Shown: in pieces, positions 5,322-20,402 of the stretch | Layout of the letters: each line of letters begins with the position of its first letter | How positions within the stretch are numbered: position 1 is the stretch's first letter | Virus genome (UHGV): UHGV-0113240 | Origin: a virus | Length of the DNA stretch: 20,402 nucleotides | Strand: one strand, 5' to 3' | The notes under the pieces: generated by a model | Seen by the model: the letters and a program-made list of their open reading frames with translations, nothing else | What the model was told of the DNA's origin: nothing | Database searches by the model: none | Made by a program: the position numbers and the translations under genes

Positions 5322-5509
5322 ACCTGGTCTCTCTCATCTGCTTCTGCTTTCGCCACCATCATTTCCAGCTTTTGTGAAAGGGATGTGGCTAACGTATGAA
5401 ATTCTTCATCTGTTTCTACTGGTATTGGCACAAACCTGACTCCAATTTGAGCAAGGCTATGTGCCATCTCAATACTCGTTCTTAACTTAACAGGAGATGC
5501 TTTGTGCAT
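5318..5509 (-). CDS. lambda orf63-like small protein
   Basis: 63-aa ORF; position between exo and ea22 matches lambda orf63; recalled similarity. Confidence 0.5.
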   Translation of the reverse strand: MHKASPVKLRTSIEMAHSLAQIGVRFVPIPVETDEEFHTLATSLSQKLEMMVAKAEADERDQV

Positions 5510-5670
5510 ATCGCCTCCCGTTTATTATTCATCTCCTCAGCCAGCCGCTGTGCTTTCAGGGGATTTCGGATAACAGAAAGACCGGGAAATACCCAGCCTC
5601 GCTTTGTAACGGAGTAGACGAAAGTGATTGCGCCCACCCGGATATTATCGTGAGGATGCTTCATCGCCAT
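5482..5670 (-). CDS. lambda orf60a-like / DUF1317-like small protein
   Basis: 62-aa ORF immediately upstream of exo, overlapping exo's start region as in lambda. Confidence 0.5.
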
Positions 5671-6341: not shown

Positions 6342-7123
6342 GCTGCCACCTTCTGCTCAGTGGCTTTCTGTTTCAGGAATCCAAGAGCTTTTACTGCTTC
6401 GGCCTGTGTCAGTTCTGACGATGCGCGAATGTCGCGGCGAAATATCTGGGAACAGAGCGGTAATAAGTCGTCATCCCATGTTTTATCCAGGGCGATCAGC
6501 AGAGTGTTAATCTCCTGCATGGTTTCATCGTTAACCGGAGTGATGTCGCGTTCCGGCTGACGTTCTGCAGTGTATGCGGTATTTTCGACAATGCGCTCGG
6601 CTTCATCCTTGTCATAGATACCAGCAAATCCGAAGGCCAGACGGGCACACTGAATCATGGCTTTATGCCGTAACATCCGTTTGGGATGCGACTGCCACGG
6701 CCCCGTGATTTCTCTGCCTTCACGGGTTTTGAATGGTTCGCGGCGGCATTCATCCATCCACTCGGTAACGCAGATCGGATGATTGCGGTCTTTGCGGTAA
6801 ATCCTGCATGTACATGATTCATTGTCCTGCTCAAAGTCCATGCCATCAAACTGCTGGTTTTCATTGATGATGCGGGACCAGCCATCAACGCCCACCACCG
6901 GAACGATGCCGTTCTGCTTATCAGGGAAGGCGTAAATTTCTTTCGTCCACGGATTAAGGCCGTACTGGTTGGCGACGATCAACAATGCGATGAACTGCGC
7001 ATCGCTGGCATCACCTTTAAATGCCGTCTGGCGAAGAGTGGTGATCAGTTCCTGTGGGTCGACAGAATCCATGCCGACACGTTCAGCCAGCTTCCCAGCC
7101 AGCGTTGCGAGTGCTGTACTCAT
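6338..7123 (-). CDS. bet: recombination protein Bet (Red-beta single-strand annealing protein)
   Basis: 261-aa protein recalled as near-identical to lambda Bet; stop overlaps the exo start. Confidence 0.95.
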
Positions 7124-7128
7124 CCGTT

Positions 7129-7425
7129 TTATACCTCTGAATCAATATCAACCTGGTGGTGAGCAATGGTTTCAACCATGTACCGGATGTGTTCTGCCAT
7201 GCGCTCCTGAAACTCAACATCGTCATCAAACGCACGGGTAATGGCTTTTTTGCTGGCCCCGTGGCGTTGCAAATGATCGATGCATAGCGATTCAAACAGG
7301 TGCTGGGGCAGGCCTTTTTCCATGTTGTCTGCCAGTTCTGCCTCTTTCTCTTCACGGGCGATCTGCTGGTAGTGACGCGCCCAACTCTGAGCCTCAAGAC
7401 GATCCTGAATGTAATAAGCGTTCAT
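7129..7425 (-). CDS. gam: host-nuclease (RecBCD) inhibitor Gam, short form
   Basis: 98-aa protein [21 protein letters not shown]... matching lambda GamS; the upstream in-frame extension is closed by TAA 16 codons before the ATG. Confidence 0.9.
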
Positions 7426-7479
7426 GGCTGACCTCCTGAAAATGGCTGTGAAAATATCGCCCGCGAAATGCCAGGCTGA

Positions 7480-7791
7480 TTAGGAAAACAGGAAAGGGGG
7501 GTAGTGATTCAGGCCGTTACCGCGTCCGTCGAGAAAAACTTCCACGAGCAAATCACGGGTATAAGTGCGCTCGATGCCGCGATGCAGATAAAGCCGTCCG
7601 CGTAAATTAGCTGATGCAGTCCAGGTACCATCTTTGTGTTTGACCAGCATTCCTGGCATGACCGCGCCGCGATTAACGGTCTGCGTTCCGTAATGTTGAT
7701 GAACCATAAAAACTCCTGCCCGTAAGCTGGGCTGCTGAACATATAGAGACTTCTGCGCGTATTCAGGCGGTGGATGGCCGCCGGTTGTCAT
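7480..7791 (-). CDS. hypothetical protein in the kil/cIII position (start uncertain)
   Basis: 103-aa ORF, the only ORF between the OL-like operators and gam; GAGG upstream of ATG 7791; no arginine-rich N-terminus, so not an obvious N homolog. Confidence 0.35.
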
Positions 7792-7984
7792 AACTAAGCC
7801 GCCTCGTTGAAGCGACTAAGGTATGAAATGTTGAGTTGATTTCAGCTGGTCACACCGACGTTCACGCGTCCGTTTCACCCCTCGCACTCCCCGGAGCCTG
7901 CTGAAATTCAAGCTGCGGATCTAAGCGGTCATCGCAACGGTGAATCAGGTGGTTGCCGTATCGTTGTGTTGTTGCGACATGGTG

Positions 7985-8035
7985 ATAATAGCTATTGCTA
8001 TTGGTGATATCAATACTTATTGCTATTGTTAGATG
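7985..8035 (-). promoter_or_regulatory. OL-like operator cluster / presumed leftward early promoter
   Basis: Repeated ATTGCTATTG motifs and a TATTGgtgatatCAATA palindrome; the same TTGCTATTG motif recurs in the cI-cro intergenic region. Confidence 0.45.
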
Positions 8036-8149
8036 TGTTTTGATATTAAATGTTTGATAGCAAAAAGAATTAATTTTGTGACTTGCATCGCATAGCGATA
8101 ACTGAAGGGAGGTTGTGGTGGTTTTTTGAACGGTTTGTGTGATGAGGGG

Positions 8150-8178
8150 AGGGCAAAAGAAAACCCGGCAAGGCCGGG
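8150..8178 (-). terminator. intrinsic terminator ending the cI-kinase-DUF3037 transcription unit (tIMM analog)
   Basis: CCCGGC-AAG-GCCGGG hairpin followed on the minus strand by TTTTCTTTT, 36 nt after the stop of the 8214..9041 gene. Confidence 0.6.
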
Positions 8179-8213
8179 TTGTTGATAAGGTATGTCACAT
8201 ACAATAATAAATT

Positions 8214-9041
8214 TTAGACTTGAGGAAGTATTTTTTTTGCAAAATCAATAGTTTCTTTGTGGCTGGATGCAGGTATATGATTTATTTTCTTAGCATCCAT
8301 AGTTCTCTTTATGATGTCAATAACTTTGCTTTGGCCTGAGTTTGGTGATTCAGGGGTTTCAATTGTGAATAGAATGTCATCAAGTGAAAGCAGGTTTTCT
8401 TCTGCTGCTCGAGTTATTCTCATCACCCAAGTATCACTATGCTCCATCATTTTTCCGGGTTCAGTTTGAGTGAATGCCAGAGGTTTGATGGCACATTGGA
8501 TCCTGTCGTGCTTCTTGGCGACCAATGGCATTGAGAACTTTGCGAAATACCCATCAATAGTTGCTTGTTTGAAGACGTTCTTCAATCCATCTATTCTATC
8601 GATACTGCGTTTTAGCTCTCTAGCTAGGACATCTTCACGGCGCTCTTTTGTGTAGTCAGCGTGGTTTACATATTTATTGTAAATGCGAGCCAACTCTTCT
8701 TTCGGGTTTTCACTGAGGATAACTCTCGTAGAGCTGAACTGAAAAATTGATTCTTTTTTGTTTGTAAAATATCTGAAGAATTGTGCAAGTTGTTGATGTC
8801 CAACAATCTGGGTAGCATGCATTTTTGCGAACTGGAGTTCTCTTTGTATTGAGTCTTTTGCTACGGGAAAAATGCAATCATCATGGAAGAAATTCTTTAC
8901 ACGAGAGTCATTTCGCTTTGTGAGCTGGAAGTCAAAGTAATTTTCTTTTGGCGCGCACAGAAGTACGCCTATGTTTGCGAACTCTTCAGTCTCCGCATAA
9001 GGCGCATAGCGAACGATGCTATATAGGCATGGAGTTGTCAT
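8214..9041 (-). CDS. DUF3037-like protein (start at ATG 9041, overlapping the upstream TGA)
   Basis: 275-aa ORF; N-terminal CLYSIVRYAPYAETEEFANIGVLL resembles the conserved N-terminal motif recalled for DUF3037; ATGA overlap with the kinase-like gene. Confidence 0.55.
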   Translation of the reverse strand: MTTPCLYSIVRYAPYAETEEFANIGVLLCAPKENYFDFQLTKRNDSRVKNFFHDDCIFPVAKDSIQRELQFAKMHATQIVGHQQLAQFFRYFTNKKESIFQFSSTRVILSENPKEELARIYNKYVNHADYTKERREDVLARELKRSIDRIDGLKNVFKQATIDGYFAKFSMPLVAKKHDRIQCAIKPLAFTQTEPGKMMEHSDTWVMRITRAAEENLLSLDDILFTIETPESPNSGQSKVIDIIKRTMDAKKINHIPASSHKETIDFAKKILPQV

Positions 9042-9790
9042 TCTATTGCGCTCCAAAATTCATCACAATCACCTTTGCCTAGCGTAGTGCAGACAAAAGG
9101 TAAAAACTCATCATCTACTATCCACTCCTCTGGAATTTCGTCAAGGATAGCAGGAAGTTTGTGTAAACTGTCAACGACCCTCTGGCGGTACTCTACGCGA
9201 TCCACTAAATCATACTGCCATTTGCGGTTACCCGGGCCGTACACGTGTACAGAAAAATCTTCAGGCCCAGCATTCTGATCAAATGATAGATTATGGTCAA
9301 TCAGATAATACTTATCGTTACTGATGTCATAAAGGATATTGACGTTTCCGCCTTTATCAGTAAGCGTTCTGTCTGCATTTAATATCCACTTATCAAAAGC
9401 ATAGATTAATTTTTGCTGTTCGACTGGGATGATCATTTCGTTTCTTGACTGCGTAAACGTTAACGCGATTGCACCGTCTATGAACAATGAAGCAAAAGCA
9501 TACCCTGTACAAATTTGTTGCTGCAGATCAGGTGTGTACTCTACAAGTTCCTCTGGTACAAATACGATTTTAAAGTCAGGTAAAGGAAGGCCGATATCAT
9601 TAGCCAGGCACGCCGAAATGAACTCAGCTAAGAGATTTTTCGGGGGCATTGATGGTTTAGATTTCAAAACATACAACTGCCCATCATCACATTTGCAAAG
9701 AAATGGCTGAGTGGAACCTTCATTGATGCGACGTATTACTTCAACGACATTAGGTATTGCACTACTGCTGCTTGCTTCGCGCTCCATCAC
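9038..9790 (-). CDS. atypical HipA / PI-kinase-like kinase-domain protein
   Basis: 250-aa ORF with LYVLK (candidate beta3 Lys), WILNADRTLTDKGGNVNIL (DRxxxxxxN-type catalytic loop) and YYLIDHNLSFD (DFG-like) motifs; directly downstream of cI. Confidence 0.5.
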   Translation of the reverse strand: MMEREASSSSAIPNVVEVIRRINEGSTQPFLCKCDDGQLYVLKSKPSMPPKNLLAEFISACLANDIGLPLPDFKIVFVPEELVEYTPDLQQQICTGYAFASLFIDGAIALTFTQSRNEMIIPVEQQKLIYAFDKWILNADRTLTDKGGNVNILYDISNDKYYLIDHNLSFDQNAGPEDFSVHVYGPGNRKWQYDLVDRVEYRQRVVDSLHKLPAILDEIPEEWIVDDEFLPFVCTTLGKGDCDEFWSAIE

Positions 9791-9925
9791 TAACCCTTAC
9801 GTGATTCAAGTCTTCCACCTCATTACTCCGCATCTCAAAGAGCGGTTCTACACAGCGTGTTTAAAGAAAAACAACAGGCTTCATTGCTGTAGCTGTTTTT
9901 CCGTAATGTCACTTTTGGTCTCGTT

Positions 9926-10618
9926 TTAACCATGCTTCCTGTACGTCTGAGGCATGCTCCCGATGACCTTACCGAAGATGAATACACGGTTCATCTCGTC
10001 TTTCTCGATTGGGTCCCATGGTGAATAGCTCTTGTTGTCAGAGATAACCAGCAGCTTATCCTTCATCATTTGAAGGCGCTTAACATGGGCCGTATCGTCG
10101 TAAAGGAACGCATAAATCCCGTCGCCGTCGAAAGATTTGATGGCGATATCGACGAACAGCAAGTCACCCGGTTCGATCGTTCCTGACATGCTGTCACCGC
10201 GTACGTTAATGATGCGGATATTTTCTGCCTTCCTGCCATCGAACATGTGACGAGCATCGTCAAACGAGTACTCAACAGAGCGCAGGACTTCTACAAACTC
10301 ACGGTTGATGACACCCGGCCCAGCACTGACTTCTATATCAAGAACGTCAATCTTGAAGTATTTGGAATGGTTGACAGTAGGCTTCCCTGATTGTTGACCG
10401 TCATTTCTCATCGGGCCTATGCCTGATGAGAGCCACTCTGTTCGAACACCCAATGCATTAGCTATTTCAACAATTTTTGTTGAGCCGCGCGCGTTGCCGC
10501 TTGTCAGTCTCCAGATTGTGGGTTGAGCTACGCCAGACGCCTTTGCAAGAGCGCCTTGAGACATTCCAGATTGTTCCATCGCTAGGTTTAAGCGATCAGC
10601 AAGAGTTTCTTTTTTCAT
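9926..10618 (-). CDS. cI: CI-type prophage repressor (HTH + S24 LexA-like autopeptidase domain)
   Basis: N-terminal HTH (SQGALAKASGVAQPTIWRL), C-terminal GDSMSGT Ser and KRL Lys of the S24 dyad; divergent from cro; start taken at ATG 10618 (tracked ORF starts at TTG 10654). Confidence 0.85.
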   Translation of the reverse strand: MKKETLADRLNLAMEQSGMSQGALAKASGVAQPTIWRLTSGNARGSTKIVEIANALGVRTEWLSSGIGPMRNDGQQSGKPTVNHSKYFKIDVLDIEVSAGPGVINREFVEVLRSVEYSFDDARHMFDGRKAENIRIINVRGDSMSGTIEPGDLLFVDIAIKSFDGDGIYAFLYDDTAHVKRLQMMKDKLLVISDNKSYSPWDPIEKDEMNRVFIFGKVIGSMPQTYRKHG

Positions 10619-10725
10619 AAGTTTTAATTTATACGCTTGCGTATTGATGGTCAAAACACGTTTTGCTATTGCTATGGTTAATACGCATTGCTATTATTTG
10701 TTTGTTGCAATACCAATAGGAATTA
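10619..10725. promoter_or_regulatory. OR-like operator region with divergent promoters
   Basis: 107-bp cI-cro intergenic region containing TTGCTATTGCTATGG, ATTGCTATTATT, CAATACCAATAGG and the palindrome ATACGCttGCGTAT. Confidence 0.5.
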
Positions 10726-10956
10726 ATGATGACAAATCAAACCATTCAACTCGCAATCAGTATTACAGGTAGTCAAAAACGACTGGCAGATCTATGCGGT
10801 GTAGCCCAGCCCACTGTTTGGCGTTGGCTACACGGTGGCGGAATTGATGCCCGCTATGTAATGAAAATTGTCTCAGCCACTGGTGGAAAGATTAAGCCAG
10901 CAGATATTCGTCCCGACCTCGCACCATTGTTTAACGCGAGTAATTCTGCCGCCTAA
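10726..10956 (+). CDS. cro: Cro-like HTH repressor
   Basis: 76-aa ORF divergent from cI; HTH QKRLADLCGVAQPTVWRW. Confidence 0.8.
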   Translation: MMTNQTIQLAISITGSQKRLADLCGVAQPTVWRWLHGGGIDARYVMKIVSATGGKIKPADIRPDLAPLFNASNSAA

Positions 10957-10980
10957 TCTGCGGCGTTAACTGATAAGGCA

Positions 10981-11526
10981 ATGATTATGCAACCACTTAC
11001 ATACCAACAGACTAGCGGATTTAGCCCGACTGCGGTGATAAATCGTTCTCAAACAAAACAAGCTCCAGGCCACGAAAAAATCCGTGATGCCGTCCGCGCC
11101 TGGTCGGCTGTAGATAATCAGGATGTCGTTGCCGCACTCATTGTGAATGAGTATCGGGAGCAGGGCGGCGGCACCATCGATTTCCCTGATGATGTCAGCC
11201 GTGCACGCCAGAAGCTGTTCCGCTTCCTCGATAACAAATTCGATTCTGAAAAATACCGAAATAACGTGCGTGAACTGACCCCGGCAATTCTGGCGGTACT
11301 ACCGCTGGAATATCGCGGTTACCTGGTTGAGCAGGATAGCTTCATGGCTAGGTTGGCTGAAATGGAAAAGGAACTCAGTGAGGCAAAACAGGCTGTCATT
11401 CTCAACGCACCACGCCACCAGAAACTGAAGGAAATTAGTGAAGGTATTGTGTCGATGTTTCGTGTGGACCCAGATCTGGCTGGTCCATTGATGGCGATGG
11501 TTACTACCATGCTGGGGGCGATATGA
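10981..11526 (+). CDS. YdaT/CII-like regulatory protein
   Basis: 181-aa ORF in the cII position between cro and O; recalled resemblance to Rac YdaT-family proteins (NEYREQGGG segment). Confidence 0.45.
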   Translation: MIMQPLTYQQTSGFSPTAVINRSQTKQAPGHEKIRDAVRAWSAVDNQDVVAALIVNEYREQGGGTIDFPDDVSRARQKLFRFLDNKFDSEKYRNNVRELTPAILAVLPLEYRGYLVEQDSFMARLAEMEKELSEAKQAVILNAPRHQKLKEISEGIVSMFRVDPDLAGPLMAMVTTMLGAI

Positions 11527-11612
11527 CAGGTTCAGAAATGGCGAAAGCCGGTCTGCTGGAACAGAACCGACTTTCAGGTGCAAATCGTAACACACTCATT
11601 GCGGGAGGAATT

Positions 11613-12542
11613 ATGGCAAACACTGCTGAGATATTCAATTTTCCAGTGCCGGATGCGGCACAAAAGGAGCCGCGCGTGGCAGATCTCGATGATGGTTATA
11701 CGCGCATTGCAAATGAGTTGCTGGAAGCTGTGATGCTGGCCGGATTAACACAGCACCAGCTTCTGGTCTTCCTAGCTGTCATGCGCAAAACATATGGCTT
11801 TAATAAAAAACTGGATTGGGTGAGCAACGAGCAACTGTCCGAATTGACCGGGATATTGCCGCACAAGTGTTCTGCTGCAAAAAGCGTTCTGGTAAAGCGT
11901 GGGATTCTTATTCAGAGCGGGCGGAATATCGGCATTAATAATGTGGTCAGTGAATGGTCAACATTACCCGAATCAGGTAAGAAAAATAAAGTTTACCTGA
12001 AAGAGGTAAATTTACCTGAATCAGGTAAGAAAAGTTTACCCAAATCAGGTAAAGGCACTTACCCGAATCAGGTAAACACAAAAGACAAACTAACAAAAGA
12101 CAATATAAAACCTTTTTCGTCCGAGAATTCTGACGAATCCTCTGACCAGCCAGAAAATGCCCTTCCTGTGGTGAAACCGGATGCTGCGATTCAGAGCGGC
12201 AGCAAGTGGGGGACAGCAGAAGACCTGACCGCCGCAGAGTGGATGTTTGACATGGTGAAGACCATCGCGCCATCAGCCAGAAAACCGAATTTTGCAGGGT
12301 GGGCTAACGATATCCGCCTGATGCGTGAACGTGACGGACGTAACCACCGCGACATGTGCGTGCTGTTCCGCTGGGCATGCCAGGACAACTTCTGGTCCGG
12401 TAACGTGCTAAGTCCGGCCAAACTCCGCGACAAGTGGACCCAACTCGAAATCAACCGTAACAAGCAACAGGCTGGCGTGACAGCCGGAAAATCAAAACTC
12501 GACCTGACGAACACTGACTGGATTTACGGGGTGGAGCTATGA
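11613..12542 (+). CDS. O: replication initiator O (start at ATG 11613 after GGGAGGAA; tracked ORF begins 11523)
   Basis: N-terminus MANTAEIFNF...VADLDDGYTRIANELLEA...LLVFLAVMRKTYGFNK matches the lambda O DNA-binding domain; iterons inside the gene; stop overlaps the P start. Confidence 0.85.
   Translation: MANTAEIFNFPVPDAAQKEPRVADLDDGYTRIANELLEAVMLAGLTQHQLLVFLAVMRKTYGFNKKLDWVSNEQLSELTGILPHKCSAAKSVLVKRGILIQSGRNIGINNVVSEWSTLPESGKKNKVYLKEVNLPESGKKSLPKSGKGTYPNQVNTKDKLTKDNIKPFSSENSDESSDQPENALPVVKPDAAIQSGSKWGTAEDLTAAEWMFDMVKTIAPSARKPNFAGWANDIRLMRERDGRNHRDMCVLFRWACQDNFWSGNVLSPAKLRDKWTQLEINRNKQQAGVTAGKSKLDLTNTDWIYGVEL
11968..12077. repeat. origin-of-replication iterons inside O, followed by an A-rich tract
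   Basis: Four copies of ttaCCnGAATCAGGTAAg plus one degenerate copy at about 24-bp spacing, then ACACAAAAGACAAACTAACAAAAGACAATATAAAAC. Confidence 0.75.
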
Positions 12543-13228
12543 AAAACATCGCCGCACAGATAGTTAATTTTGACCGTGAGCAGATGCGCCGGATCGCCAA
12601 TAACATGCCGGAACAGTACGACGAAAAGCCGCAGGTACAGCAGGTAGCGCAGATTATCAATGGTGTGTTCCGCCAGTTACTGGCAACTTTCCCGGCGAGC
12701 GTGGCTAACCGGGACCAGAACGAACTGAACGAAATCCGCCGCCAGTGGGTTCTGGCTTTCCGGGAAAACGGGATCACCACAATGGAACAGGTTAACGCTG
12801 GAATGCGCGTAGCCCGTCGGCAGAATCGACCATTCCTGCCATCACCCGGGCAGTTTGTCGCCTGGTGCCGGGAAGAAGCATCCGTTACCGCCGGGCTGCC
12901 AAACGCCAGCGAGCTGGTTGATATGGTTTACGAGTATTGCCGGAAGCGCGGGCTGTATCCGGATGCAGAGTCTTATCCGTGGAAATCAAACGCGCACTAC
13001 TGGCTGGTTACCAACCTGTATCAGAACATGCGGGCCAATGCGTTGACTGACGCGGAATTACGGCGCAAGGCTGCCGATGAACTGTCCTGTATGACCGCAC
13101 GAATTAACCGTGGTGAGGCTATACCTGAACCAGTAAAACAACTTCCTGTCATGGGCGGTAGACCTCTAAATCGTGCACAGGCTCTGGCGAAGATCGCAGA
13201 AATCAAAGCTAAGTTTGGGCTGAAATGA
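12539..13228 (+). CDS. P: replication protein P (DnaB helicase loader)
   Basis: 229-aa protein recalled as near-identical to lambda P (MKNIAAQ.VNFDREQMRRIANNMPEQYDEKPQVQQ...). Confidence 0.95.
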   Translation: MKNIAAQIVNFDREQMRRIANNMPEQYDEKPQVQQVAQIINGVFRQLLATFPASVANRDQNELNEIRRQWVLAFRENGITTMEQVNAGMRVARRQNRPFLPSPGQFVAWCREEASVTAGLPNASELVDMVYEYCRKRGLYPDAESYPWKSNAHYWLVTNLYQNMRANALTDAELRRKAADELSCMTARINRGEAIPEPVKQLPVMGGRPLNRAQALAKIAEIKAKFGLK

Positions 13229-13530
13229 GCAAGGGTATGACGGGCAAAGAGGCAATTATTCATTACCTGGGGACTCATAAGAAATTCTGTGCGCAGGACG
13301 TTGCCGCGGTAACAGGCGCAACGGTAACCAGCATAAATCAGGCTGCGGCTAAAATGGCGCGGGCAGGAATCCTGGTCGTTGATGGTAAGGTCTGGCGAAC
13401 GGTGTATTATCGGTTCGCTACCAGAGAAGAACGGGAAGGAAAGGTGAGCACGAATTTGATTTTTAAGGAGTGTCGCCAGAGTGCCGCGATGAAGCGGGTG
13501 TTGGCGGTATATGGGAGGACTACAGCATAA
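13225..13530 (+). CDS. ren: Ren protein (start may be the internal ATG at 13237)
   Basis: Sequence MTGKEAIIHYLGTH...VTGATVTSINQAAAKMARAG...VYYRFATREEREGK matches lambda Ren; immediately follows P. Confidence 0.85.
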   Translation: MSKGMTGKEAIIHYLGTHKKFCAQDVAAVTGATVTSINQAAAKMARAGILVVDGKVWRTVYYRFATREEREGKVSTNLIFKECRQSAAMKRVLAVYGRTTA

Positions 13531-14007
13531 GCATAACTTATGGATTATATGGAAAACTGGTAATTATGCTCTTTTCTTATGAAAATAAAGAGAAGTTTTC
13601 GCTGGCGTTTTATTTCTTCTGTTTTTTCTTGCGGGTTATTCTGATTTGTTTTGATTTGATTTTTTCTGACAAAAGTAGGGAAAAAATATGTCGCAAGTAC
13701 TTTCTGTCTTTACCTCCTAAATTACATTCTCTATCAAATGTTGCCATAGTTATGACCCCAGTTTTATATAGTGTTTCAGCAATTTTTCTGTAGTTTTTTT
13801 CTCGCAAAATTGAAGAGTTTTTCTTTGCTGTATTTTCAAGGCTATCTCCTTGTGGTTTAAGACTATTTGGGCCAAAAAACGTTGTGGATACTGCTGCACT
13901 TGTTGTCCGTTTTTTTTGGCCCATTTGGATAGTACTTGGGAGAGGCATGATTTTAATACGCATATAAATAACTCCTCTATCAATTGGATTTTGGGAAAAT
14001 GTTAACA

Positions 14008-14325
14008 TTAATCATGATTAAGGAGTAATTTTAAATCTTCCAATAAAATTTGTTTAAACTCTTGTGTTCTATGATCGATATACAACGCAAGTTTGCTTGC
14101 ATTATCTTCCAGGTCACGTATCTCTCTGTCACCTCGAATAAACCCAACTAAATTTAAACGTTTAGATAGTTCAGAACTTCCTTCTATGGCATCTTGGAGT
14201 ATTTGAATGATTTCTGAATTCATTGAGCGCCCGTTTCGTTTGGCTCGTTCAGCTATAGCTTCACGCATCCCATCAGGGAAACGGAGGTTAAACTTATCGT
14301 AGTCTTTTACTTGTTTGTCAGCCAT
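14008..14325 (-). CDS. Mnt/Arc-family ribbon-helix-helix repressor (start at ATG 14325)
   Basis: 105-aa ORF MADKQVKDYDKFNLRFPDGMREAIAERAKRNGRSMNSEIIQILQDAI with an RHH N-terminus; GGGGG SD; divergent from a second RHH gene. Confidence 0.6.
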   Translation of the reverse strand: MADKQVKDYDKFNLRFPDGMREAIAERAKRNGRSMNSEIIQILQDAIEGSSELSKRLNLVGFIRGDREIRDLEDNASKLALYIDHRTQEFKQILLEDLKLLLNHD

Positions 14326-14345
14326 TGAACCCCCCAAAAAAATGA

Positions 14346-14401
14346 ATGGTGCCATATTGCCACATCAATTCAATGGTGGCATTATGGCCTCATGGTGTCA
14401 T
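14346..14401. promoter_or_regulatory. candidate operator: three direct repeats of ATGGTGNCAT between the divergent RHH genes
   Basis: ATGGTGCCAT (14346), ATGGTGGCAT (14373), ATGGTGTCAT (14392) at 27- and 19-bp spacing. Confidence 0.4.
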
Positions 14402-14424
14402 TGTGGCCTCATGAGGTTATGTCA

Positions 14425-14583
14425 ATGGAAAAGAAAGAGGTAAAAATTACCCTTCGCTATCCGCAAAAAGTGAAGGATGAATTCAAGCGAATTGCTCAGG
14501 AGGAAGGGATGTCTGAGAACGCAGCTATTGTTCAGGCGCTTGTATGGGCATTGAAATTTAGAACACGGATACATGCTCGCTAG
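14425..14583 (+). CDS. Arc-like ribbon-helix-helix repressor (52 aa; start at ATG 14425)
   Basis: MEKKEVKITLRYPQKVKDEFKRIAQEEGMSENAAIVQALV has the RHH pattern and P22 Arc-like size; GAGG 8 nt upstream; directly precedes an antirepressor-like gene. Confidence 0.55.
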   Translation: MEKKEVKITLRYPQKVKDEFKRIAQEEGMSENAAIVQALVWALKFRTRIHAR

Positions 14584-14653
14584 AAACAGCGAAGCCCCAC
14601 TGGCGGCAACCTTAGGGGCTTCTATCGAAAATAACCGCGAAGGAAATATCGAC

Positions 14654-15322
14654 ATGAGTATTGTAGCAACATCAGATCTGAACTTCCAAGGTGAAGCACT
14701 AGTGCCAGTGGCAAATATTGCCGGAATATGGCTAACTTCATCCAACCTAGCAAGAGCACTGAAGTATTCGAATAGTCGCGCAGTCACGATGATTTACAAC
14801 AAATATGCTGACGAATTTTCCAGTAGTATGACTAGAGTGCTTGAAGTCAGTACCTTAGAGAATGATGTCGAGGTACTTGATCTGAGTACCTCGAAAAGTA
14901 CTCGAAACTTGAAGAAGAAAGTACGCGTTTTCTCTCTCCGCGGAGCCCATTTGATCGCCATGTTCGCCCGCACTCCTGTAGCCAAAGAGTTCCGCCGTTG
15001 GGTTCTGGATATTCTCGATCGAGAAGTTCAACAATCCCCAATCATAAAACAATTCACTGATAACGAACTTTGCACACTTGCTTGGTTGTGGCGAGCTGGG
15101 GATGCGATGTTAACCGCCTGCCAGAACGTTACTCCTCTTCTTCAGGTTGCGGAGCATCGTGAAGCTGGTCGCTTCACTTCTATCGAGCAAGAATATCCCC
15201 AGATACTCAATAAGGCACAGGCAATCCTTGCCAGAGAAACGGCACATGTAAAATTCCGGCCGTGGCAGGATGATAAGTGGAGTCGAGTTTTGCCGCATTT
15301 ACGTTCGGATCGATTACAGTAG
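14654..15322 (+). CDS. Bro-N domain antirepressor-like protein (start at ATG 14654 after AAGGAA)
   Basis: RVFSLRGAHLIAMFARTPVAKEFRRWVLDIL matches the conserved Bro-N/antirepressor N-domain signature; follows the arc-like gene as in P22 immI. Confidence 0.6.
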   Translation: MSIVATSDLNFQGEALVPVANIAGIWLTSSNLARALKYSNSRAVTMIYNKYADEFSSSMTRVLEVSTLENDVEVLDLSTSKSTRNLKKKVRVFSLRGAHLIAMFARTPVAKEFRRWVLDILDREVQQSPIIKQFTDNELCTLAWLWRAGDAMLTACQNVTPLLQVAEHREAGRFTSIEQEYPQILNKAQAILARETAHVKFRPWQDDKWSRVLPHLRSDRLQ

Positions 15323-15783
15323 ATTCCAATTAACAATGAGAAACACATAGCCACCCCGTGGTATTGAAACCATATAATGTTGGATTTGAAAACAGATCTT
15401 TTTCCATGTATTAATAACTACATCCCCGCGAGTGATTCAAAAAGGAGGGCCCAATTTTGTCCGAGTTTTTGTATTCCCCCGCATGCCGCTGCGGAGCACT
15501 ACATCTGAGTGTCTGACTAGGGGATAAAATTAGACTGGATAGTGAGAAGAAAGTGGCGTGCTAGGCTGTGCCGAGTGCTACCAGTACACCCTGGGGGTGT
15601 GCAGCTTTCGCCGAGACTGTAGTGGGTATCGGTTAATGCACGAAAAACCGAGAGGTCAGACAACCAATTTGCCGTAGGATTGTTTCCGGTGCGATACCGG
15701 TGTACTAACTGAAAGCAATGCGAAAAAGCATAAACTCGGTCCTTCAGTCGCCCTACACACTATTTACTAAGAAGGGCTAAAGC

Positions 15784-16140
15784 ATGGATACAATTATCAC
15801 ATGGATGGGAGATCGTCTGTTGGGGTGGATAACAAACAAATCCGATCTGCGGCAGAGGGCAATCACTGGATTAACTCCTGCGATTTGTTCAACAATTTTA
15901 TATACTGAAAAATTAAAACGTGGTGAGCCTAATAACCCAAACGAAGAAGAAAAACTTTATAGGCTTTGGTATGAAGCGTCTTCCCAAGTCGTAGACTTTG
16001 ATCGAGAGCTGGCTAAAAGATGTTTAGATAAATCAGAATATTGGCTTCATTCTGAATTATATAGCCCTGAGAAAGTTGAAGAGCTAAACATTTCTTTGGT
16101 TGGTATGAAGGCAATGCTTGAAGGAATAAAGCACAATTAA
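15784..16140 (+). CDS. hypothetical protein (orphan, no recognised family)
   Basis: 118-aa ORF with AAGAAGGG SD; preceded by about 460 bp without any tracked ORF. Confidence 0.4.
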   Translation: MDTIITWMGDRLLGWITNKSDLRQRAITGLTPAICSTILYTEKLKRGEPNNPNEEEKLYRLWYEASSQVVDFDRELAKRCLDKSEYWLHSELYSPEKVEELNISLVGMKAMLEGIKHN

Positions 16141-16327
16141 AACCTTTGATTTGCGATAATCAACTCGCCATAATCATGTCATCGGAGCCTGAACAACTCC
16201 GGTGACTTCTGCGCTAAACGGGGACGTTTATGCGCACACACAATCCAAACTCTCTTCTCCCTCCGCAGATGCAGAAATGCACCTGCGATATATTGTATCC
16301 AGCGTTTCACCTCTACGGAGGTGAAGC

Positions 16328-16783
16328 GTGAACCTCCCACAAGATGGTATCAAATTGCATCGCGGTAACTTCACCGCTATCGGTCGGCAGATCCAGCCTT
16401 ATCTGGAGGACGGCAAATGCTTTCGCATGGTGCTTAAACCGTGGCGCGAGAGACGCAGTCTTTCCCAGAATGCACTCAGCCACATGTGGTACAGCGAAAT
16501 CAGTGAATACCTCATCAGCAAGGGTAAAACGTTCGCCACTCCAGCTTGGGTAAAAGATGCTCTCAAACACACATATCTCGGTTATGAAACCAAAGACCTG
16601 GTTGATGTCGTAACCGGTGATATCACCACTATCCAGTCGTTACGCCATACCTCCGATCTTGATACCGGAGAGATGTATGTCTTCCTCTGTAAGGTTGAAG
16701 CCTGGGCGATGAATATTGGCTGCCACCTGACTATTCCGCAGAGCTGCGAGTTCCAGCAGCTCCGCGACAAGCAGGAGGCGTAA
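16328..16783 (+). CDS. ybcN: YbcN-like protein (DLP12-type nin region)
   Basis: 151-aa ORF, GTG start 4 nt after GGAGGTGA; recalled near-identity to E. coli DLP12 YbcN. Confidence 0.75.
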
Positions 16784-16953
16784 TGGCTACACCGCTTATT
16801 CGTGTCATGAACGGACACATCTACAGAGTACCAAATCGTCGTAAGCGTAAACCTGAGCTGAAGCCTTCCGAAATACCAACACTGCTCGGATATACCGCCA
16901 GCCTGGTTGATAAAAAATGGTTGCGACTGGCAGCAAGGAGGAATCATGGCTGA
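16783..16953 (+). CDS. ninE: NinE-like protein (not in ORF track, 56 aa)
   Basis: ATG overlaps the ybcN stop (TAATG); [56 protein letters not shown] resembles lambda/DLP12 NinE. Confidence 0.65.
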   Translation: MATPLIRVMNGHIYRVPNRRKRKPELKPSEIPTLLGYTASLVDKKWLRLAARRNHG

Positions 16954-17236
16954 TTTGAGAAAAGCAGCGCGTGGTCGGGAATGCCAGGTAAGAATCCCTG
17001 GCGTATGTAATGGCAACCCTGAAACGTCTGTACTGGCACATATCCGGCTGGCTGGATTGTGCGGCACCGGTATTAAACCGCCAGACCTGATTGCCACCAT
17101 TGCATGTTCTGCCTGTCACGATGAGATCGACCGTCGCACGAATTTTGTTAACGCTGGATATGCAAAAGAATGCGCGCTGGAAGGTATGGCGAGAACGCAG
17201 GTTATCTGGCTGAAAGAGGGGGTAATTAAGGCGTGA
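16946..17236 (+). CDS. ybcO: YbcO-like (DUF1364) protein
   Basis: 96-aa ORF from internal ATG ([28 protein letters not shown]...); recalled near-identity to DLP12 YbcO; overlaps ninE end and rusA start. Confidence 0.75.
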
Positions 17237-17595
17237 ATACTTACCACATCACACTACCCTGGCCGCCGAGCAATAACCGCTACTACCGCCATAATCGCGG
17301 GCGCACACACATCAGCGCAGAAGGGCAGGCATACCGCGATAACGTCACCCGAATCATTAAAAACGCAATGCTGGATATCGGCCTGGCTATGCCAGTGAAA
17401 ATCCGTATTGAGTGCCACATGCCGGATCGCCGTCGCCGTGACCTGGATAATCTGCAAAAAGCCGCTTTTGACGCACTCACCAAAGCAGGTTTCTGGCTGG
17501 ATGATGCTCAGGTCGTTGATTACCGCGTTGTGAAGATGCCTGTTACCAAAGGTGGGAGGCTGGAACTGACCATCACCGAAATGGGGAATGAATGA
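17233..17595 (+). CDS. rusA: Holliday-junction resolvase RusA
   Basis: 120-aa protein [25 protein letters not shown]... recalled as near-identical to E. coli RusA. Confidence 0.9.
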
Positions 17596-17732
17596 TGTTT
17601 GAGTTTTATATGGCAGAACTTCTTCGCCACCGCTGGGGGCGTCTGCGCTTATATCGTTTCCCCGGTTCTGTTTTGACCGATTACCGGATACTGAAGAATT
17701 ACGCCAAAACACTGAAAGGAGCTGCCGCATGA
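17592..17732 (+). CDS. ylcG: YlcG-like small protein (not in ORF track, 46 aa)
   Basis: [46 protein letters not shown]; ATGA overlaps with rusA stop and with the next gene's start. Confidence 0.6.
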
Positions 17733-18418
17733 ATACCCAATATTTACAGTATGTCCGCGAGCAACTCATTGTGGCTACTGCTGATTTGGGCGGAGCAACG
17801 AAAGGCCAGCTTGAAGCCTGGCTGGAGCATGCACAATTTGATACTGGTACATATAAACGAAAGAAGCCGCGCATTATGGATGAGGTAACGGGCAAGATGA
17901 TTACGCTGGATAATCCGCCGATTTCCGGTAAGCAGTCGTACGCAAAAGGTTCATCCATTGCACTGGTCAGCCAGGTTGAGTTCTCAACATCTTCATGGCG
18001 CCGCGCGGTTCTGTCTCTCGAAGAACATCAGAAAGCGTGGTTGCTGTGGAGTTACAGCGAAAGTGTTCGCTGGGAACATCAGGTCACCATAACGCAGTGG
18101 GTATGGAGCGAGTTTAAGACTCTGTTGGGTACCAGGAAAATTGCAGGTAAGACACTGGAACGTTTGAAGAAGTTGATCTGGCTGGCGGCACAGGATGTGA
18201 AGAACGAGCTGGCAGGGCGTAAGACCTATGAATACCAGGAGCTGGCATTACTGGCGGGAGTGACAACTAAAAACTGGTCCAAAACATTTACTCGTCACTG
18301 GGTTGCAATGAAACACATTTTTCACCGACTGGATAGTGAGGCTTTATTGTTTGTAATGAGAACACGTTCAAAACAAAAGGTGGCATTTTCAAAGCAAAGT
18401 GTTGCAAAAGTAGATTGA
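17729..18418 (+). CDS. late-gene antiterminator Q-like protein
   Basis: 229-aa ORF in the canonical Q position: after rusA/ylcG and immediately before a promoter-like stretch plus strong intrinsic terminator (pR'-tR' arrangement); family assignment by position, not sequence. Confidence 0.55.
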   Translation: MNTQYLQYVREQLIVATADLGGATKGQLEAWLEHAQFDTGTYKRKKPRIMDEVTGKMITLDNPPISGKQSYAKGSSIALVSQVEFSTSSWRRAVLSLEEHQKAWLLWSYSESVRWEHQVTITQWVWSEFKTLLGTRKIAGKTLERLKKLIWLAAQDVKNELAGRKTYEYQELALLAGVTTKNWSKTFTRHWVAMKHIFHRLDSEALLFVMRTRSKQKVAFSKQSVAKVD

Positions 18419-18484
18419 AAGGCATATATTTCATGCAAATCTGATATTTTGCCGATTTTGTACGTGATGGCAAAAGCAAACAAA

Positions 18485-18508
18485 ACCCGCCCACAAGCGG
18501 GTTTTTTT
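18485..18508 (+). terminator. tR'-like intrinsic terminator downstream of Q
   Basis: ACCCGC-ccacaa-GCGGGT hairpin followed by TTTTTTT; about 65 nt downstream of the Q stop. Confidence 0.8.
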
Positions 18509-18628
18509 GTGCCACTTATCTCGGATAGACATGGTGAATGCGCTGGTGGAGGCGATAAGGGTGATTTTTAACCAGGTGATTTTTGAATGCTTGCTACATT
18601 GATTTCGTAACGTTATTATCCTGCGCCC

Positions 18629-18704
18629 GGCCCTTTAGCTCAGTGGTGAGAGCGAGCGACTCATAATCGCCAGGTCGCTGGTTCAAATCCAGCAAGGGCC
18701 ACCA
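18629..18704 (+). tRNA. ileZ: tRNA-Ile2 (anticodon CAU, lysidine type; could alternatively read as Met)
   Basis: 76-nt cloverleaf: acceptor GGCCCTT/AAGGGCC, anticodon loop CUCAUAA, T-loop GGTTCAAATCC, 3' ACCA; recalled close match to E. coli ileX-type tRNA. Confidence 0.8.
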
Positions 18705-18713
18705 TATCACATA

Positions 18714-18790
18714 CCGCCATTAGCTCATCGTGACAGAGCGCCAGCCTTCGAAGCTGGCTGCGCGGGGTTCAAGTCCCCGATGGCGGTCCA
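18714..18790 (+). tRNA. argN: tRNA-Arg (anticodon UCG)
   Basis: Acceptor CCGCCAT/ATGGCGG, anticodon stem CCAGC/GCTGG with loop CUUCGAA, T-arm CGGGG-TTCAAGT-CCCCG, 3' TCCA. Confidence 0.75.
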
Positions 18791-18803
18791 TTATCGGTAT
18801 TCT

Positions 18804-18880
18804 GCGTTGTTAGCTCAGCCGGACAGAACAATTGCCTTCTAAGCAATCGGTCACTGGTTCGAATCCAGTACAACGCGCCA
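18804..18880 (+). tRNA. argO: tRNA-Arg (anticodon UCU)
   Basis: Acceptor GCGTTGT/ACAACGC, anticodon stem ATTGC/GCAAT with loop CUUCUAA, T-loop GGTTCGAATCC, 3' GCCA. Confidence 0.8.
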
Positions 18881-19169
18881 CACCACACTTATCTGCCCTG
18901 ACTCTCTTTTGCGGGCTTTTTATTACAGGAAAGACACCGGACAGTGAAATGTTAAATGCCTCACAATTCAGGCAGTTGACTGTTGCCTGACATGCTGAGC
19001 GTTTGTTAAAAAAATCCTGCATGATGAATCCCCCTGAGCGGCGGGGCATAATGACAGATGTTTGGTTGCGTATTGTATAGGCAAGTTGCGGATTCTGTCT
19101 GGTCATTGCAGAATTCACCGGGAGGCACCCGGCATCATGCATCTGGTGAATTAAATGTGCATACGTAAT

Positions 19170-19194
19170 GCCCCTCTTCGGAGGGGCTTTTTTT
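19170..19194 (+). terminator. strong intrinsic terminator
   Basis: GCCCCTC-ttcg-GAGGGGC hairpin followed by TTTTTTT. Confidence 0.75.
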
Positions 19195-19369
19195 CGGAAA
19201 AAGCACGCAATGGGCGTGCATTAGCATGAGATATTGAGGCTTTAAATTTTTTCGTGCGGGTTTTAACCCGGTTTCATGAGGCTGCGCAACTGCGTGGCCT
19301 TTTTTGTTTTTCTGGCTGCTGAAAGTGGCAGTCACAGTCCTTCATATCACCCGTGACCGGGGAGGAACA

Positions 19370-20402
19370 ATGACGTTTAAACATTATGATGTGGTCAGGG
19401 CAGGTTCAGCATCAGGGCTTGCTGAGCAGCTGACACAGAAGATAAAAGAAGGGTGGCAACCGTTTGGCAGTCCTGTGGCTGTCACACCAAACATCCTGAT
19501 GCAGGCTGTTGCTGCAGAGGGGGATGTGAGCACGCCTGTGGTTGTTCCCGGCACGGGAGCCGGCGGAGCATCGGGAGTGACATCCGGGGAGCCGGATTAT
19601 TACTACGTGGTGGTACTCGCCGGACAGTCGAACGGGATGGCGTATGGTGAGGGTATTCCTCTTCCGGAGACTTACGACCGTCCTGACCCGCGTATCAAGC
19701 AACTGGCCAGACGCAGTACGGTAACGCCGGGTGGTGAAGCCTGTTCTTATAATGATGTCATTCAGGCAGACCACTGCCTGCATGATGTGCAGGATATGAG
19801 CAGCTTTAACCATCCGAAAGCTGATCTGAGCAAAGGGCAGTACGGGACTGTCGGTCAGGGACTGCATATTGCCAAAAAACTGCTGCCTTACATTCCGCAG
19901 AATGCCGGGATACTTCTGGTTCCCTGCTGTCGTGGTGGTTCGGCATTCACCACCGGGGCTGATGGCTCATTCAGTGAGGCCAGAGGTGCTTCTGCTGACT
20001 CTGCATGCTGGGGAGCCGGTAAACCCCTGTATCAGGACCTGGTAAGCCGCACCAGAGCGGCACTGGTGAAGAACCCGAAAAATAAACTTCTGGCTGTGGT
20101 ATGGATGCAGGGAGAGACAGACCTTGCATCAGGAAGTCAGCAGCATAATGGTTTATTCACTGCCATGGTTCAGCAGTTCAGAACAGACCTGTCTTCAGTT
20201 GCAGCGCAGTGCGTGAGTGGAAATGCTGGCACGGTGCCGTGGATTTGTGGTGACACGACATATTACTGGAAGGCAACGTACGGTACGCAGTATGACGCCT
20301 TGTACAGCGCGTATAAAACGCTGTCAGCACAGCATATTTTCTTTGTACCGTTCCTGACGGATGAGAATGGACAGAACACGCCAACGAATGCTCCGGCGGA
20401 AG
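19370..20402 (+). CDS. NanS-p-like sialate O-acetylesterase (DUF1737 N-terminus + SGNH/SASA domain), 3' end outside the window
   Basis: ATG 19370 after GGGGAGGA; hand-checked open frame to the window end (not in the ORF track because there is no stop); MTFKHYDVVRAGSASGLAEQL... N-terminus and VVLAGQSNGMAYGE (GQSN catalytic Ser motif). Confidence 0.7.
   Translation, partial: MTFKHYDVVRAGSASGLAEQLTQKIKEGWQPFGSPVAVTPNILMQAVAAEGDVSTPVVVPGTGAGGASGVTSGEPDYYYVVVLAGQSNGMAYGEGIPLPETYDRPDPRIKQLARRSTVTPGGEACSYNDVIQADHCLHDVQDMSSFNHPKADLSKGQYGTVGQGLHIAKKLLPYIPQNAGILLVPCCRGGSAFTTGADGSFSEARGASADSACWGAGKPLYQDLVSRTRAALVKNPKNKLLAVVWMQGETDLASGSQQHNGLFTAMVQQFRTDLSSVAAQCVSGNAGTVPWICGDTTYYWKATYGTQYDALYSAYKTLSAQHIFFVPFLTDENGQNTPTNAPAE

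What the first reader, a model, noticed from the sequence alone, without database searches (positions are those of the whole stretch)
18419..20402. Stx-phage-style late region (Q, tR', ileZ-argN-argO, nanS-p-like esterase) with no toxin genes at the stx position
Seen in sequence: a Q-position gene, a tR'-type terminator, three tRNAs (CAU, UCG, UCU anticodons), then about 490 bp of non-coding DNA carrying two hairpin terminators, then a gene beginning MTFKHYDVV... with a GQSN esterase motif. Established knowledge: in Shiga-toxin phages such as 933W the order is Q, tR', ileZ-argN-argO, stxAB, nanS-p esterase, lysis genes. Here the tRNA-to-esterase interval is too short to hold stxAB and encodes no ORF. 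Inference: this is either an stx-negative relative or a derivative that lost the toxin operon; the terminator at 19170..19194 would gate Q-dependent read-through into the esterase gene.
Basis: partly seen in the sequence, partly recalled or inferred. Interest (0 to 1): 0.6.

Follow-up and report, generated by a model that had tools for sequence, protein, structure and literature searches.

The report
Toxin-free Stx-type prophage late region
This is the ordinary late-gene control region of an E. coli lambdoid prophage built like a Shiga-toxin phage but with the toxin slot empty, and the supposedly non-coding gap actually holds a known pair of small regulatory RNA genes.

Summary
Alignment to phage 933W places the missing toxin exactly. 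Window 18603..18921 matches the 933W tRNA module at 92.5%. Window 18961 onward matches 933W from 46 nt after the stxB2 stop. So 39 bp (18922..18960) stand where 933W has 1341 bp of stx2 promoter plus stxA2B2. No stx remnant is detectable. The same empty junction occurs at 99% identity or more in 455 complete E. coli records, O157:H7 included, so this is a common stx-negative configuration, not a fresh deletion. The interval is not plain spacer. On the – strand is a divergent, rare element at the AgvB/AsxR anti-sRNA position. Q is phage-82 type, joined to the tRNA–sRNA–esterase module at about 18464. Ordinary and already described; low interest.

The parts
17729..18418 (+). Q antiterminator gene, phage-82 type (229 aa)
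   Evidence: Pfam PF06323 at 308.8 bits. 94.7% nt identity to phage 82 Q, X92588.
18402..18430 (+). Candidate late promoter pR' (TTGCAA-17-TATATT), overlapping the end of Q
   Evidence: Promoter scan. Its position matches lambdoid pR'. Homology with Q82-type E. coli prophages runs through it to about 18464. Function is inferred.
18482..18510 (+). tR'-type intrinsic terminator ending a short leader RNA of about 75 nt; the hairpin reads as a terminator on both strands
   Evidence: -24.3 kcal/mol, z = -3.3. The phage 434 record annotates a terminator at the equivalent place after its Q82-like gene.
18591..18619 (+). Candidate tRNA promoter pT (TTGCTA-17-TATTAT)
   Evidence: Promoter scan. Aligns exactly to the feature annotated 'pT; putative tRNA promoter' in 933W, L003 1583..1611.
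18629..18704 (+). tRNA with CAU anticodon (ileZ)
   Evidence: ARAGORN. Rfam 72.5 bits. 76/76 identical to 933W ileZ. PGAP names the homologues tRNA-Ile.
18714..18790 (+). tRNA-Arg UCG (argN)
   Evidence: 74/77 identical to 933W argN, including a T-arm G-U to G-C change.
18804..18880 (+). tRNA-Arg UCU (argO)
   Evidence: 75/77 identical to 933W argO.
18895..18921 (+). Weak hairpin plus T run after argO
   Evidence: Aligns to the 933W feature 'possible rho-independent terminator upstream of the stx genes', L003 1886..1909. The fold is weak: -6 kcal/mol, z = -1.4.
18922..18960 (.). Empty stx (moron) slot: 39 bp where 933W has 1341 bp of stx2 promoter plus stxA2B2. It also holds the candidate -10 (TGTTAAAT, 18950..18957) of the STnc100 gene.
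   Evidence: blastn breakpoints against 933W and two Stx1 phages. No stx remnant. Junction shared at 99% or more by 455 E. coli records.
18963..19199 (+). STnc100 / EcOnc27-family Hfq-type sRNA gene. The Rfam model covers 18990..19199. The 5' end near 18963 is inferred.
   Evidence: RF02076 at 154.8 bits against a gathering score of 47, full length. 9 of 39 consensus pairs show compensatory changes across 8 homologues. The 235/247-nt size of EcOnc27 and its probe sequence come from Tree et al. 2014 supplement.
19170..19194 (+).
   Evidence: Terminator scan. It is the 3' helix of the Rfam alignment.
19196..19254 (-). Divergent sRNA-like element at the AgvB/AsxR/EcOnc03 anti-sRNA position, convergent with STnc100. 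Predicted 59 nt: CGAAAAAAUUUAAAGCCUCAAUAUCUCAUGCUAAUGCACGCCCAUUGCGUGCUUUUUCC.
   Evidence: Sub-threshold AgvB hit, 20.6 bits against a gathering score of 56. Shared core AUCUCAUGCU, conserved start CGA and its own terminator 19219..19203.
19260..19289 (-). Promoter-like region of the minus-strand element: -35 TTGCGC (19289..19284, invariant), 18-nt spacer, -10 TAAAAC (19265..19260). Characterised loci have TAAAAT.
   Evidence: Minus-strand alignment A2. Activity was not tested.
19278..19310 (+). Conserved + strand intrinsic terminator just upstream of the esterase gene; its loop carries the -35 of the minus-strand promoter
   Evidence: -16.1 kcal/mol, z = -3.7. Nearly invariant in all 7 aligned loci.
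19370..20402 (+). nanS-p-type 9-O-acetyl sialic acid esterase gene: first 344 codons, cut by the contig end. RBS GGGAGGA at 19360..19366.
   Evidence: Pfam DUF1737 plus SASA. PDB 3PT5 NanS at E = 2.9e-100. 70.7% aa identity to Stx1-phage NanS-p. The 96.9%-identical relative L021 shows a 646-aa ORF with DUF6645, then DUF1378, lysozyme and Rz.

Best explanation
Window 17729..20402 is the start of the late operon of an E. coli lambdoid prophage. It has the same layout as Stx-converting phages, but the moron slot that holds stxAB in those phages is empty.

Proposed mechanism, by analogy with lambda, phage 82 and 933W (inferred, not tested here):
- Transcription starts at pR' (about 18402..18430) and, without Q, stops at the terminator 18482..18510.
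- After induction, the phage-82-type Q protein modifies RNA polymerase at pR'.
- The modified polymerase reads through that terminator and the three further + strand terminators (18895..18921, 19170..19194, 19278..19310).
- It then transcribes the nanS-p esterase gene and the lysis genes beyond it.

The three tRNAs (ileZ, argN, argO; rare-codon readers) have their own promoter, pT.

The 489-bp interval is almost fully occupied:
- A 39-bp junction stands in place of the toxin cassette.
- An autonomous STnc100/EcOnc27-family sRNA gene lies on the + strand.
- Convergent with it is a short element at the position of the AgvB/AsxR anti-sRNAs.

The prophage is a mosaic. A phage-82-type Q/pR' module is joined at about 18464 to a tRNA-sRNA-esterase module.
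For: - Slot mapping: window 18603..18921 matches 933W at 92.5%. Window 18961..20388 matches 933W from 46 nt after the stxB2 stop. Two Stx1 phages align from 40 nt after the stxB1 stop (annotations).
- sRNA module: STnc100 (+) followed by AsxR or an AgvB-type RNA (-) lies between stxB and the esterase in 933W, BP-4795 and phage 75/02. It lies between argO and the esterase in stx-negative E. coli prophages.
- Window STnc100: 154.8 bits, full length, with compensatory pairs.
- Literature: Tree et al. 2014 describe convergent sRNAs between the moron CDS and the conserved downstream ORF in Sp3, 4, 5, 9, 10, 11, 15 and 17. Zhu et al. 2026 describe the pasD/STnc100-esterase-holin-lysozyme arrangement.
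- Commonness: the empty junction is contiguous in 491 of 5426 complete E. coli genomes, at 99% or more in 455 records. Same-layout loci.
- Mosaic: window 4743..18464 is about 96% identical to prophages in which the Q82-type gene is followed directly by holin.
- Lysis genes follow the esterase in the 96.9%-identical relative L021.
Against: - Nothing here shows transcription, Q action or sRNA expression. Promoters and the STnc100 5' end are inferred from consensus matches, alignment and published northern sizes for a homologue.
- The window ends inside the esterase gene, so the lysis genes of this particular prophage are not seen. They are seen only in relatives.
- The minus-strand element fails the Rfam AgvB threshold (20.6 against 56 bits) and has C instead of T at the last -10 position. 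It may be inactive.
- The hairpin after argO is weak (z = -1.4).
Confidence: 0.9

Rival explanations
1. The prophage is a recent derivative of a Stx-converting phage that deleted stxAB.
For: The gene order is that of Stx phages, and the tRNA module is 92.5% identical to 933W with ileZ 76/76. Zhu et al. 2026 raise repeated stx loss as one possible history of such loci.
Against: - There is no stx promoter or coding remnant in 18915..18965; local alignment scores lie within the shuffle range.
- The same junction is fixed at 99% or more in 455 E. coli records of many serotypes.
- The sRNA/esterase module is only 67-71% identical to Stx1 and Stx2 phages, and Q is a different family.
- An ancient loss cannot be told apart from a slot that was never filled.
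Confidence: 0.06
2. The 489-bp interval is plain non-coding spacer whose hairpins only serve as Q-sensitive terminators.
For: There is no credible protein ORF. Eleven terminator-like sites were found in 17600..20402, against 3.1 expected from shuffles.
Against: - Full-length RF02076 match at 154.8 bits, with compensatory base pairs across homologues.
- The 933W homologue contains the EcOnc27 northern-probe sequence; EcOnc27, from the related Stx2 prophage Sp5, is an Hfq-bound RNA of about 235/247 nt.
- The sequence blocks are conserved far better than the flanks.
Confidence: 0.03
3. This concerns one sub-feature. The minus-strand element 19254..19196 is a decayed remnant of an anti-sRNA gene rather than a working allele.
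For: - AgvB model score is only 20.6 bits against a gathering score of 56.
- The -10 reads TAAAAC where all characterised loci have TAAAAT.
- Beyond this prophage's own contigs, the allele was found in one E. coli plasmid fragment among IS elements and one metagenome contig. It is absent from GTDB species representatives and IMG/VR.
Against: - The -35, the start CGA, the AUCUCAUGCU core and a complete hairpin plus U tract are all kept.
- The cM8a copy is 95.5% identical over the 154 nt around the element and keeps the same architecture.
- The 5' part is A-rich, as expected for Hfq distal-face ARN motifs.
Confidence: 0.5

Closest known systems
Late region of Stx2 phage 933W (NC_000924): Q, pR', tR', pT, ileZ-argN-argO, stx2AB, STnc100/EcOnc27, AsxR, nanS-p, S-R-Rz
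   Same: - Same order of parts.
- The tRNA module with pT and the post-argO terminator is 92.5% identical (ileZ 100%).
- STnc100 and the esterase are homologous (67% nt).
- Both have a conserved terminator upstream of the esterase.
   Different: - There is no stxAB: 39 bp stand in place of 1341 bp.
- Q is PF06323 (phage-82 type), not the 933W Q.
- No extra terminators or spacer lie between tR' and pT.
- The minus-strand RNA is not AsxR.
Non-Stx lambdoid prophages of EHEC and other E. coli (e.g. the Sakai Sp3/4/9/10/11/15/17 type; loci L005, L006, L007, L017, L018)
   Same: - Same empty-slot layout: tRNAs, STnc100, convergent sRNA, SASA esterase, DUF1378, DUF826, holin, lysozyme.
- The junction sequence is 99-100% identical to hundreds of such prophages (Tree et al. 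2014).
   Different: - Most carry other Q types (DUF1133 or other) and extra genes, such as a DNA methyltransferase, between Q and the tRNAs.
- The window's esterase and minus-strand sRNA alleles are divergent: best whole-region identity is about 84-86%.
Rfam RF02076 STnc100 = EcOnc27; related to PasD (Zhu, Shabalina and Storz 2026)
   Same: [quoted passage not shown]
   Different: Its function is unknown even for the family. The window copy has its own 3' variable stretch and terminator sequence, with a compensatory A-U in the closing helix.
Anti-sRNAs AgvB (EcOnc01), AsxR (EcOnc02) and EcOnc03 (Tree et al. 2014; RF02702, RF02703)
   Same: Same position, same orientation convergent with STnc100, invariant -35, start CGA, core AUCUCAUGCU, predicted length 59 nt, variable 5' part.
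   Different: - It fails both Rfam models.
- The terminator hairpin sequence is entirely different (GCACGC/GCGUGC against GCCCGA/UCGGGC).
- The -10 ends in C.
- The 5' variable part matches neither the GcvB-mimic CACAACA motif nor the AsxR sequence.
Phage 82 Q / pR' module
   Same: 94.7% nt identity over Q. Promoter and terminator lie at the expected places.
   Different: Downstream of about 18464 the sequence leaves the phage-82/434-type relatives, which go straight to other genes or to lysis genes.

Membership tests
Stx-converting phage | stxA and stxB genes downstream of Q/pR' | tested here: not met
   39 bp stand where 933W has Pstx2-stxA2B2. No remnant. No ORF with a Pfam hit in the interval.
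Stx-phage-type late region (layout) | Order Q, terminator, ileZ-argN-argO, moron slot, nanS-p, lysis genes | tested here: met
   Lysis genes are seen only in relatives (L005-L007, L017, L018, L021) because the contig ends at 20402.
Rfam RF02076 STnc100 | Covariance-model score at or above the gathering score (47 bits), full-length match | tested here: met
   154.8 bits, model positions 1-206 of 206.
Rfam RF02076 STnc100 | Conserved secondary structure supported by covariation | tested here: met
   39 consensus pairs, 9 with both-sides changes in 8 homologues.
Rfam RF02076 STnc100 | Expressed, Hfq-associated RNA | not testable with these tools
   Shown only for the Sp5 homologue EcOnc27 (Tree et al. 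2014).
AgvB/AsxR anti-sRNA family (RF02702/RF02703) | Covariance-model score at or above the gathering score (56 / 63 bits) | tested here: not met
   AgvB 20.6 bits, E = 0.38. No AsxR hit at E of 1 or below.
AgvB/AsxR anti-sRNA family (RF02702/RF02703) | Position and orientation: convergent with STnc100/EcOnc27, between the moron slot and the esterase | tested here: met
   Alignments A1 and A2.
AgvB/AsxR anti-sRNA family (RF02702/RF02703) | Highly conserved 3' region of about 42 nt, variable 5' region of 14-18 nt, length 51-60 nt | tested here: inconclusive
   Only the first roughly 17 nt of the conserved part are kept (AUAUCUCAUGCUAAUGC against GUAUCUCAUGCUGUUGC). The terminator differs. Predicted length is 59 nt.
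AgvB/AsxR anti-sRNA family (RF02702/RF02703) | Active sigma-70 promoter | tested here: inconclusive
   -35 TTGCGC is invariant. The -10 is TAAAAC instead of TAAAAT.
NanS-p (prophage 9-O-acetyl sialic acid esterase) | DUF1737 N-terminal domain plus SASA esterase domain with the GQSN serine motif | tested here: met
   Pfam. GQSN aligns with that of NanS 3PT5.
NanS-p (prophage 9-O-acetyl sialic acid esterase) | C-terminal DUF6645 domain, total length about 645 aa | not testable with these tools
   The gene is cut by the contig end. It is present in the 96.9%-identical relative L021.
Phage antitermination protein Q, phage-82 type (PF06323) | Pfam score above cut-off; located just upstream of a promoter plus terminator | tested here: met
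   308.8 bits. Promoter and terminator.
ileZ-argN-argO phage tRNA cluster | Three tRNAs with CAU, UCG and UCU anticodons, homologous to those of 933W | tested here: met
   Identities 76/76, 74/77 and 75/77.

The most novel reading that the evidence does not exclude
The minus-strand element 19254..19196 may be a working anti-sRNA of a specificity class not yet described. It has a new 5' variable region (CGAAAAAAUUUAAAGCCUCAA) and a new terminator. It sits in the same promoter and position scaffold as AgvB, AsxR and EcOnc03. It would sponge a different host sRNA, or pair with the antisense late transcript.
Probability: 0.3. Interest if true: 0.35.

Novelty: already known. Interest (0 to 1): 0.12.

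Why it matters
It matters little beyond correct annotation. Three practical points follow.

- The stx insertion point can be pinned to a 39-bp junction between the argO terminator and the STnc100 promoter. That makes a convenient marker for typing empty and occupied slots.
- "Intergenic" DNA in lambdoid late regions should be screened for the STnc100/anti-sRNA pair before it is called non-coding.
- The rare minus-strand allele is a cheap candidate to test if one wants to extend the anti-sRNA family.

Tried and rejected
- **stx remnants.** I looked in 18915..18965 against the stx regions of 933W, BP-4795 and phage 75/02, on both strands. Local alignment scores were within the shuffle range.
- **Protein coding in the interval.** The three mechanical ORFs have no Pfam hit at E of 0.1 or below. 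The 110-aa ORF is not kept open in relatives. Rejected.
- **Finding the minus-strand allele elsewhere.**
  - Two exact-pattern scans of GTDB species representatives and one of IMG/VR found nothing.
  - One metagenome scan found a single contig, L021.
  - blastn against complete E. coli genomes found one plasmid fragment.
- **Non-E. coli source.** I considered this because the best whole-region identity is only about 84-86%. I rejected it: the flank with yfhL is 98% E. coli and the early region is about 96%. The low figure reflects divergent esterase and sRNA alleles.
- **Sub-threshold Rfam hits on the pR' leader.** The hits to isrK, isrJ and amino-acid leader families at 18410..18511 look like generic hairpin-plus-U-tract matches. 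I did not treat them as membership.
- **Target prediction.** I did not attempt it for the new 5' variable region because no sRNA set was available offline.
Full report
**Observation**

- ORF 17729..18418 (229 aa) is a Q antiterminator. It hits Pfam PF06323 at 308.8 bits and is 94.7% nt identical to phage 82 Q.
- A sigma-70-like promoter, TTGCAA-17-TATATT, lies at 18402..18430. It is followed by a strong hairpin plus T run at 18482..18510. The leader 18437..18512 folds at -24.3 kcal/mol, z = -3.3.
- The curated phage 434 record, which has a Q82-like gene, annotates a terminator at the equivalent place.
- ARAGORN finds tRNAs at 18629..18704 (CAU), 18714..18790 (UCG) and 18804..18880 (UCU). The Rfam tRNA model scores them 72.5, 55.5 and 61.3 bits.
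- The esterase ORF starts at 19370 (MTFKHYDVV) with GQSN encoded at 19622..19633. It carries DUF1737 plus SASA. It matches the solved NanS/YjhS structure 3PT5 at E = 2.9e-100. It is 70.7% identical to NanS-p of Stx1 phages.

**Source of the window**

- The window is the last 20.4 kb of a human-associated metagenome contig, ENA ERZ651900 NODE_608 (100% identity).
- The window end is the contig end, which is why the esterase is truncated.
- The same prophage occurs at 99.7-99.9% in four other assemblies.
- The left flank (yfhL) is 98% E. coli, and the early region is about 96% identical to E. coli lambdoid prophages.

**Where the toxin genes would be**

- Against 933W, window 18603..18921 aligns at 92.5% to the segment holding the annotated tRNA promoter pT, ileZ-argN-argO and the "possible terminator upstream of the stx genes".
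- Window 18961..20388 aligns at 67% to 933W starting 46 nt after the stxB2 stop.
- Two Stx1 phages (BP-4795 and Shigella phage 75/02) align from 40 nt after the stxB1 stop.
- So 39 bp (18922..18960) replace the 1341 bp that carry the stx2 promoter and stxA2B2 in 933W.
- ileZ is 76/76 identical to 933W, argN 74/77 and argO 75/77.
- The slot shows no similarity to stx cassettes beyond shuffled controls.

**What the "non-coding" interval holds**

- Rfam finds a full-length STnc100 sRNA (RF02076) at 18990..19199 on the + strand: 154.8 bits against a gathering score of 47.
- The same family lies directly downstream of stxB in 933W (207.7 bits), BP-4795 (190.7) and 75/02 (141.3). In each it is followed on the opposite strand by AsxR or an AgvB-type RNA, then the esterase.
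- Stx-negative E. coli prophages have the same module directly after argO.
- Across eight homologues the consensus fold has 39 pairs, nine of them with compensatory changes.
- Tree et al. [quoted passage not shown]
- Their EcOnc27 northern probe is the reverse complement of the 933W STnc100 3' part, and the RNA runs at about 235/247 nt.
- This implies a start about 30-40 nt upstream of the Rfam model. In the window that is near 18963, behind a candidate -10 TGTTAAAT at 18950..18957. This is an inference.
- Zhu, Shabalina and Storz 2026 relate STnc100 to PasD. [quoted passage not shown]
- The function of the family is still unknown.

**The minus-strand element**

- At 19254..19196 the window has a predicted 59-nt RNA with its own terminator at 19219..19203.
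- It shares several features with AgvB, AsxR and EcOnc03: the invariant -35 TTGCGC, the start CGA and the core AUCUCAUGCU.
- It differs in three ways: a different 5' variable part, a wholly different terminator stem, and TAAAAC instead of TAAAAT at the -10.
- It scores only 20.6 bits on the AgvB model, whose gathering score is 56. It therefore occupies the family's position but fails its sequence test.
- Outside this prophage's own contigs, the allele turned up in two places.
  - One is an IS-ridden fragment on E. coli cM8a plasmid p2.
  - The other is one metagenome contig, L021.
- It is absent from GTDB species representatives and IMG/VR.
- Whether it is active or decaying is open. I put it at about even odds.

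**Mechanism**

- By analogy with lambda, phage 82 and 933W (established knowledge, not tested here), Q loads at pR' and makes RNA polymerase terminator-resistant.
- There are four + strand terminators to pass: 18482..18510, 18895..18921 (weak, z = -1.4), 19170..19194 and the highly conserved 19278..19310 (z = -3.7).
- In L021, which is 96.9% identical over window 19010..20402, the esterase is 646 aa (DUF1737, SASA, DUF6645). It is followed by DUF1378, a lysozyme and Rz. Annotated E. coli relatives show the same.

**Loss or never present**

- The empty junction (window 18850..19030) is contiguous in 491 of 5426 complete E. coli genomes.
- It is 99% or more identical in 455 records, including O157:H7 and O111 strains that carry it in non-Stx prophages.
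- With no remnant and only 67-71% identity to Stx phages in the adjacent module, a recent deletion is unlikely.
- An ancient loss cannot be told apart from an unfilled slot.

**Mosaicism**

- Homology with Q82-type prophages stops at about 18464-18466, just after the promoter-proximal part of the leader.
- Those relatives continue straight into holin.
- PPompW-type prophages share Q through the tRNAs at 84-88%.

**Verdict**

This is an ordinary, already described stx-negative lambdoid late region. The one mildly new item is the rare minus-strand sRNA allele.

Noticed in passing
window 18464..18466: A mosaic junction lies just downstream of the candidate pR' and the early leader. To the left, the window is about 96% identical to E. 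coli prophages whose Q82-type gene is followed directly by holin. To the right, the tRNA-sRNA-esterase module begins.
   Followed up: partly
window 18434..18511 (+): The short pR'-to-terminator leader (about 75 nt) gives sub-threshold Rfam hits to isrK and isrJ (22.7 and 24.5 bits). It is the positional counterpart of lambda 6S RNA and of StxS in Stx phages (the StxS comparison is from my own knowledge). It could itself be a small RNA.
   Followed up: no
window 8214..9790 (-): A HipA-like kinase (PF20613, 256.7 bits) and a DUF3037 protein sit as a pair between the early-left genes and the S24/HTH repressor gene (9926..10654). This looks like a moron or defence-type insert.
   Followed up: no
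window 50..1922: The host gene yfhL (50..310, -) is next to a 467-aa tyrosine recombinase (519..1922, +), so the prophage sits beside yfhL. In E. coli MLI108K3 the same integrase borders a different element carrying a DEAD-box helicase and a DNA polymerase.
   Followed up: partly
window 20402 (contig end); L010 from 9895: The assembly breaks inside nanS-p, probably because the gene is multi-copy. A 99.9%-identical MAG contig (GCA_050550605.1) diverges from the window at 19622, right at the GQSN codons, leaving only a 97-aa DUF1737 ORF. This is either recombination or an assembly chimera.
   Followed up: partly
window 18804..18880: argO differs from the 933W copy at the base 3' of the anticodon (A instead of G) and in the D arm. 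argN has a T-arm change that turns a G-U pair into G-C.
   Followed up: no
L008 (E. coli cM8a plasmid p2, 5843..6154): A fragment carrying STnc100 and the same rare minus-strand allele lies on an 87-kb plasmid, between iraM and several IS remnants and detached from any Q or esterase gene.
   Followed up: partly
L001, L002, L006 (Rfam 'AgvB' hits at 56.6 bits): The RNAs that Rfam calls AgvB in Stx1 phages and in E. coli OkiPb01678 have the EcOnc03 sequence (AAAUGACAAUGCAAG...). They lack the GcvB-mimic CACAACA of true AgvB. The Rfam label therefore overstates their identity.
   Followed up: partly
window 2660..3364 (-) and 3933..4709 (-): A dATP/dGTP pyrophosphohydrolase plus DUF551 protein, and an Ead/Ea22-like protein, lie in the early-left region.
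   Followed up: no
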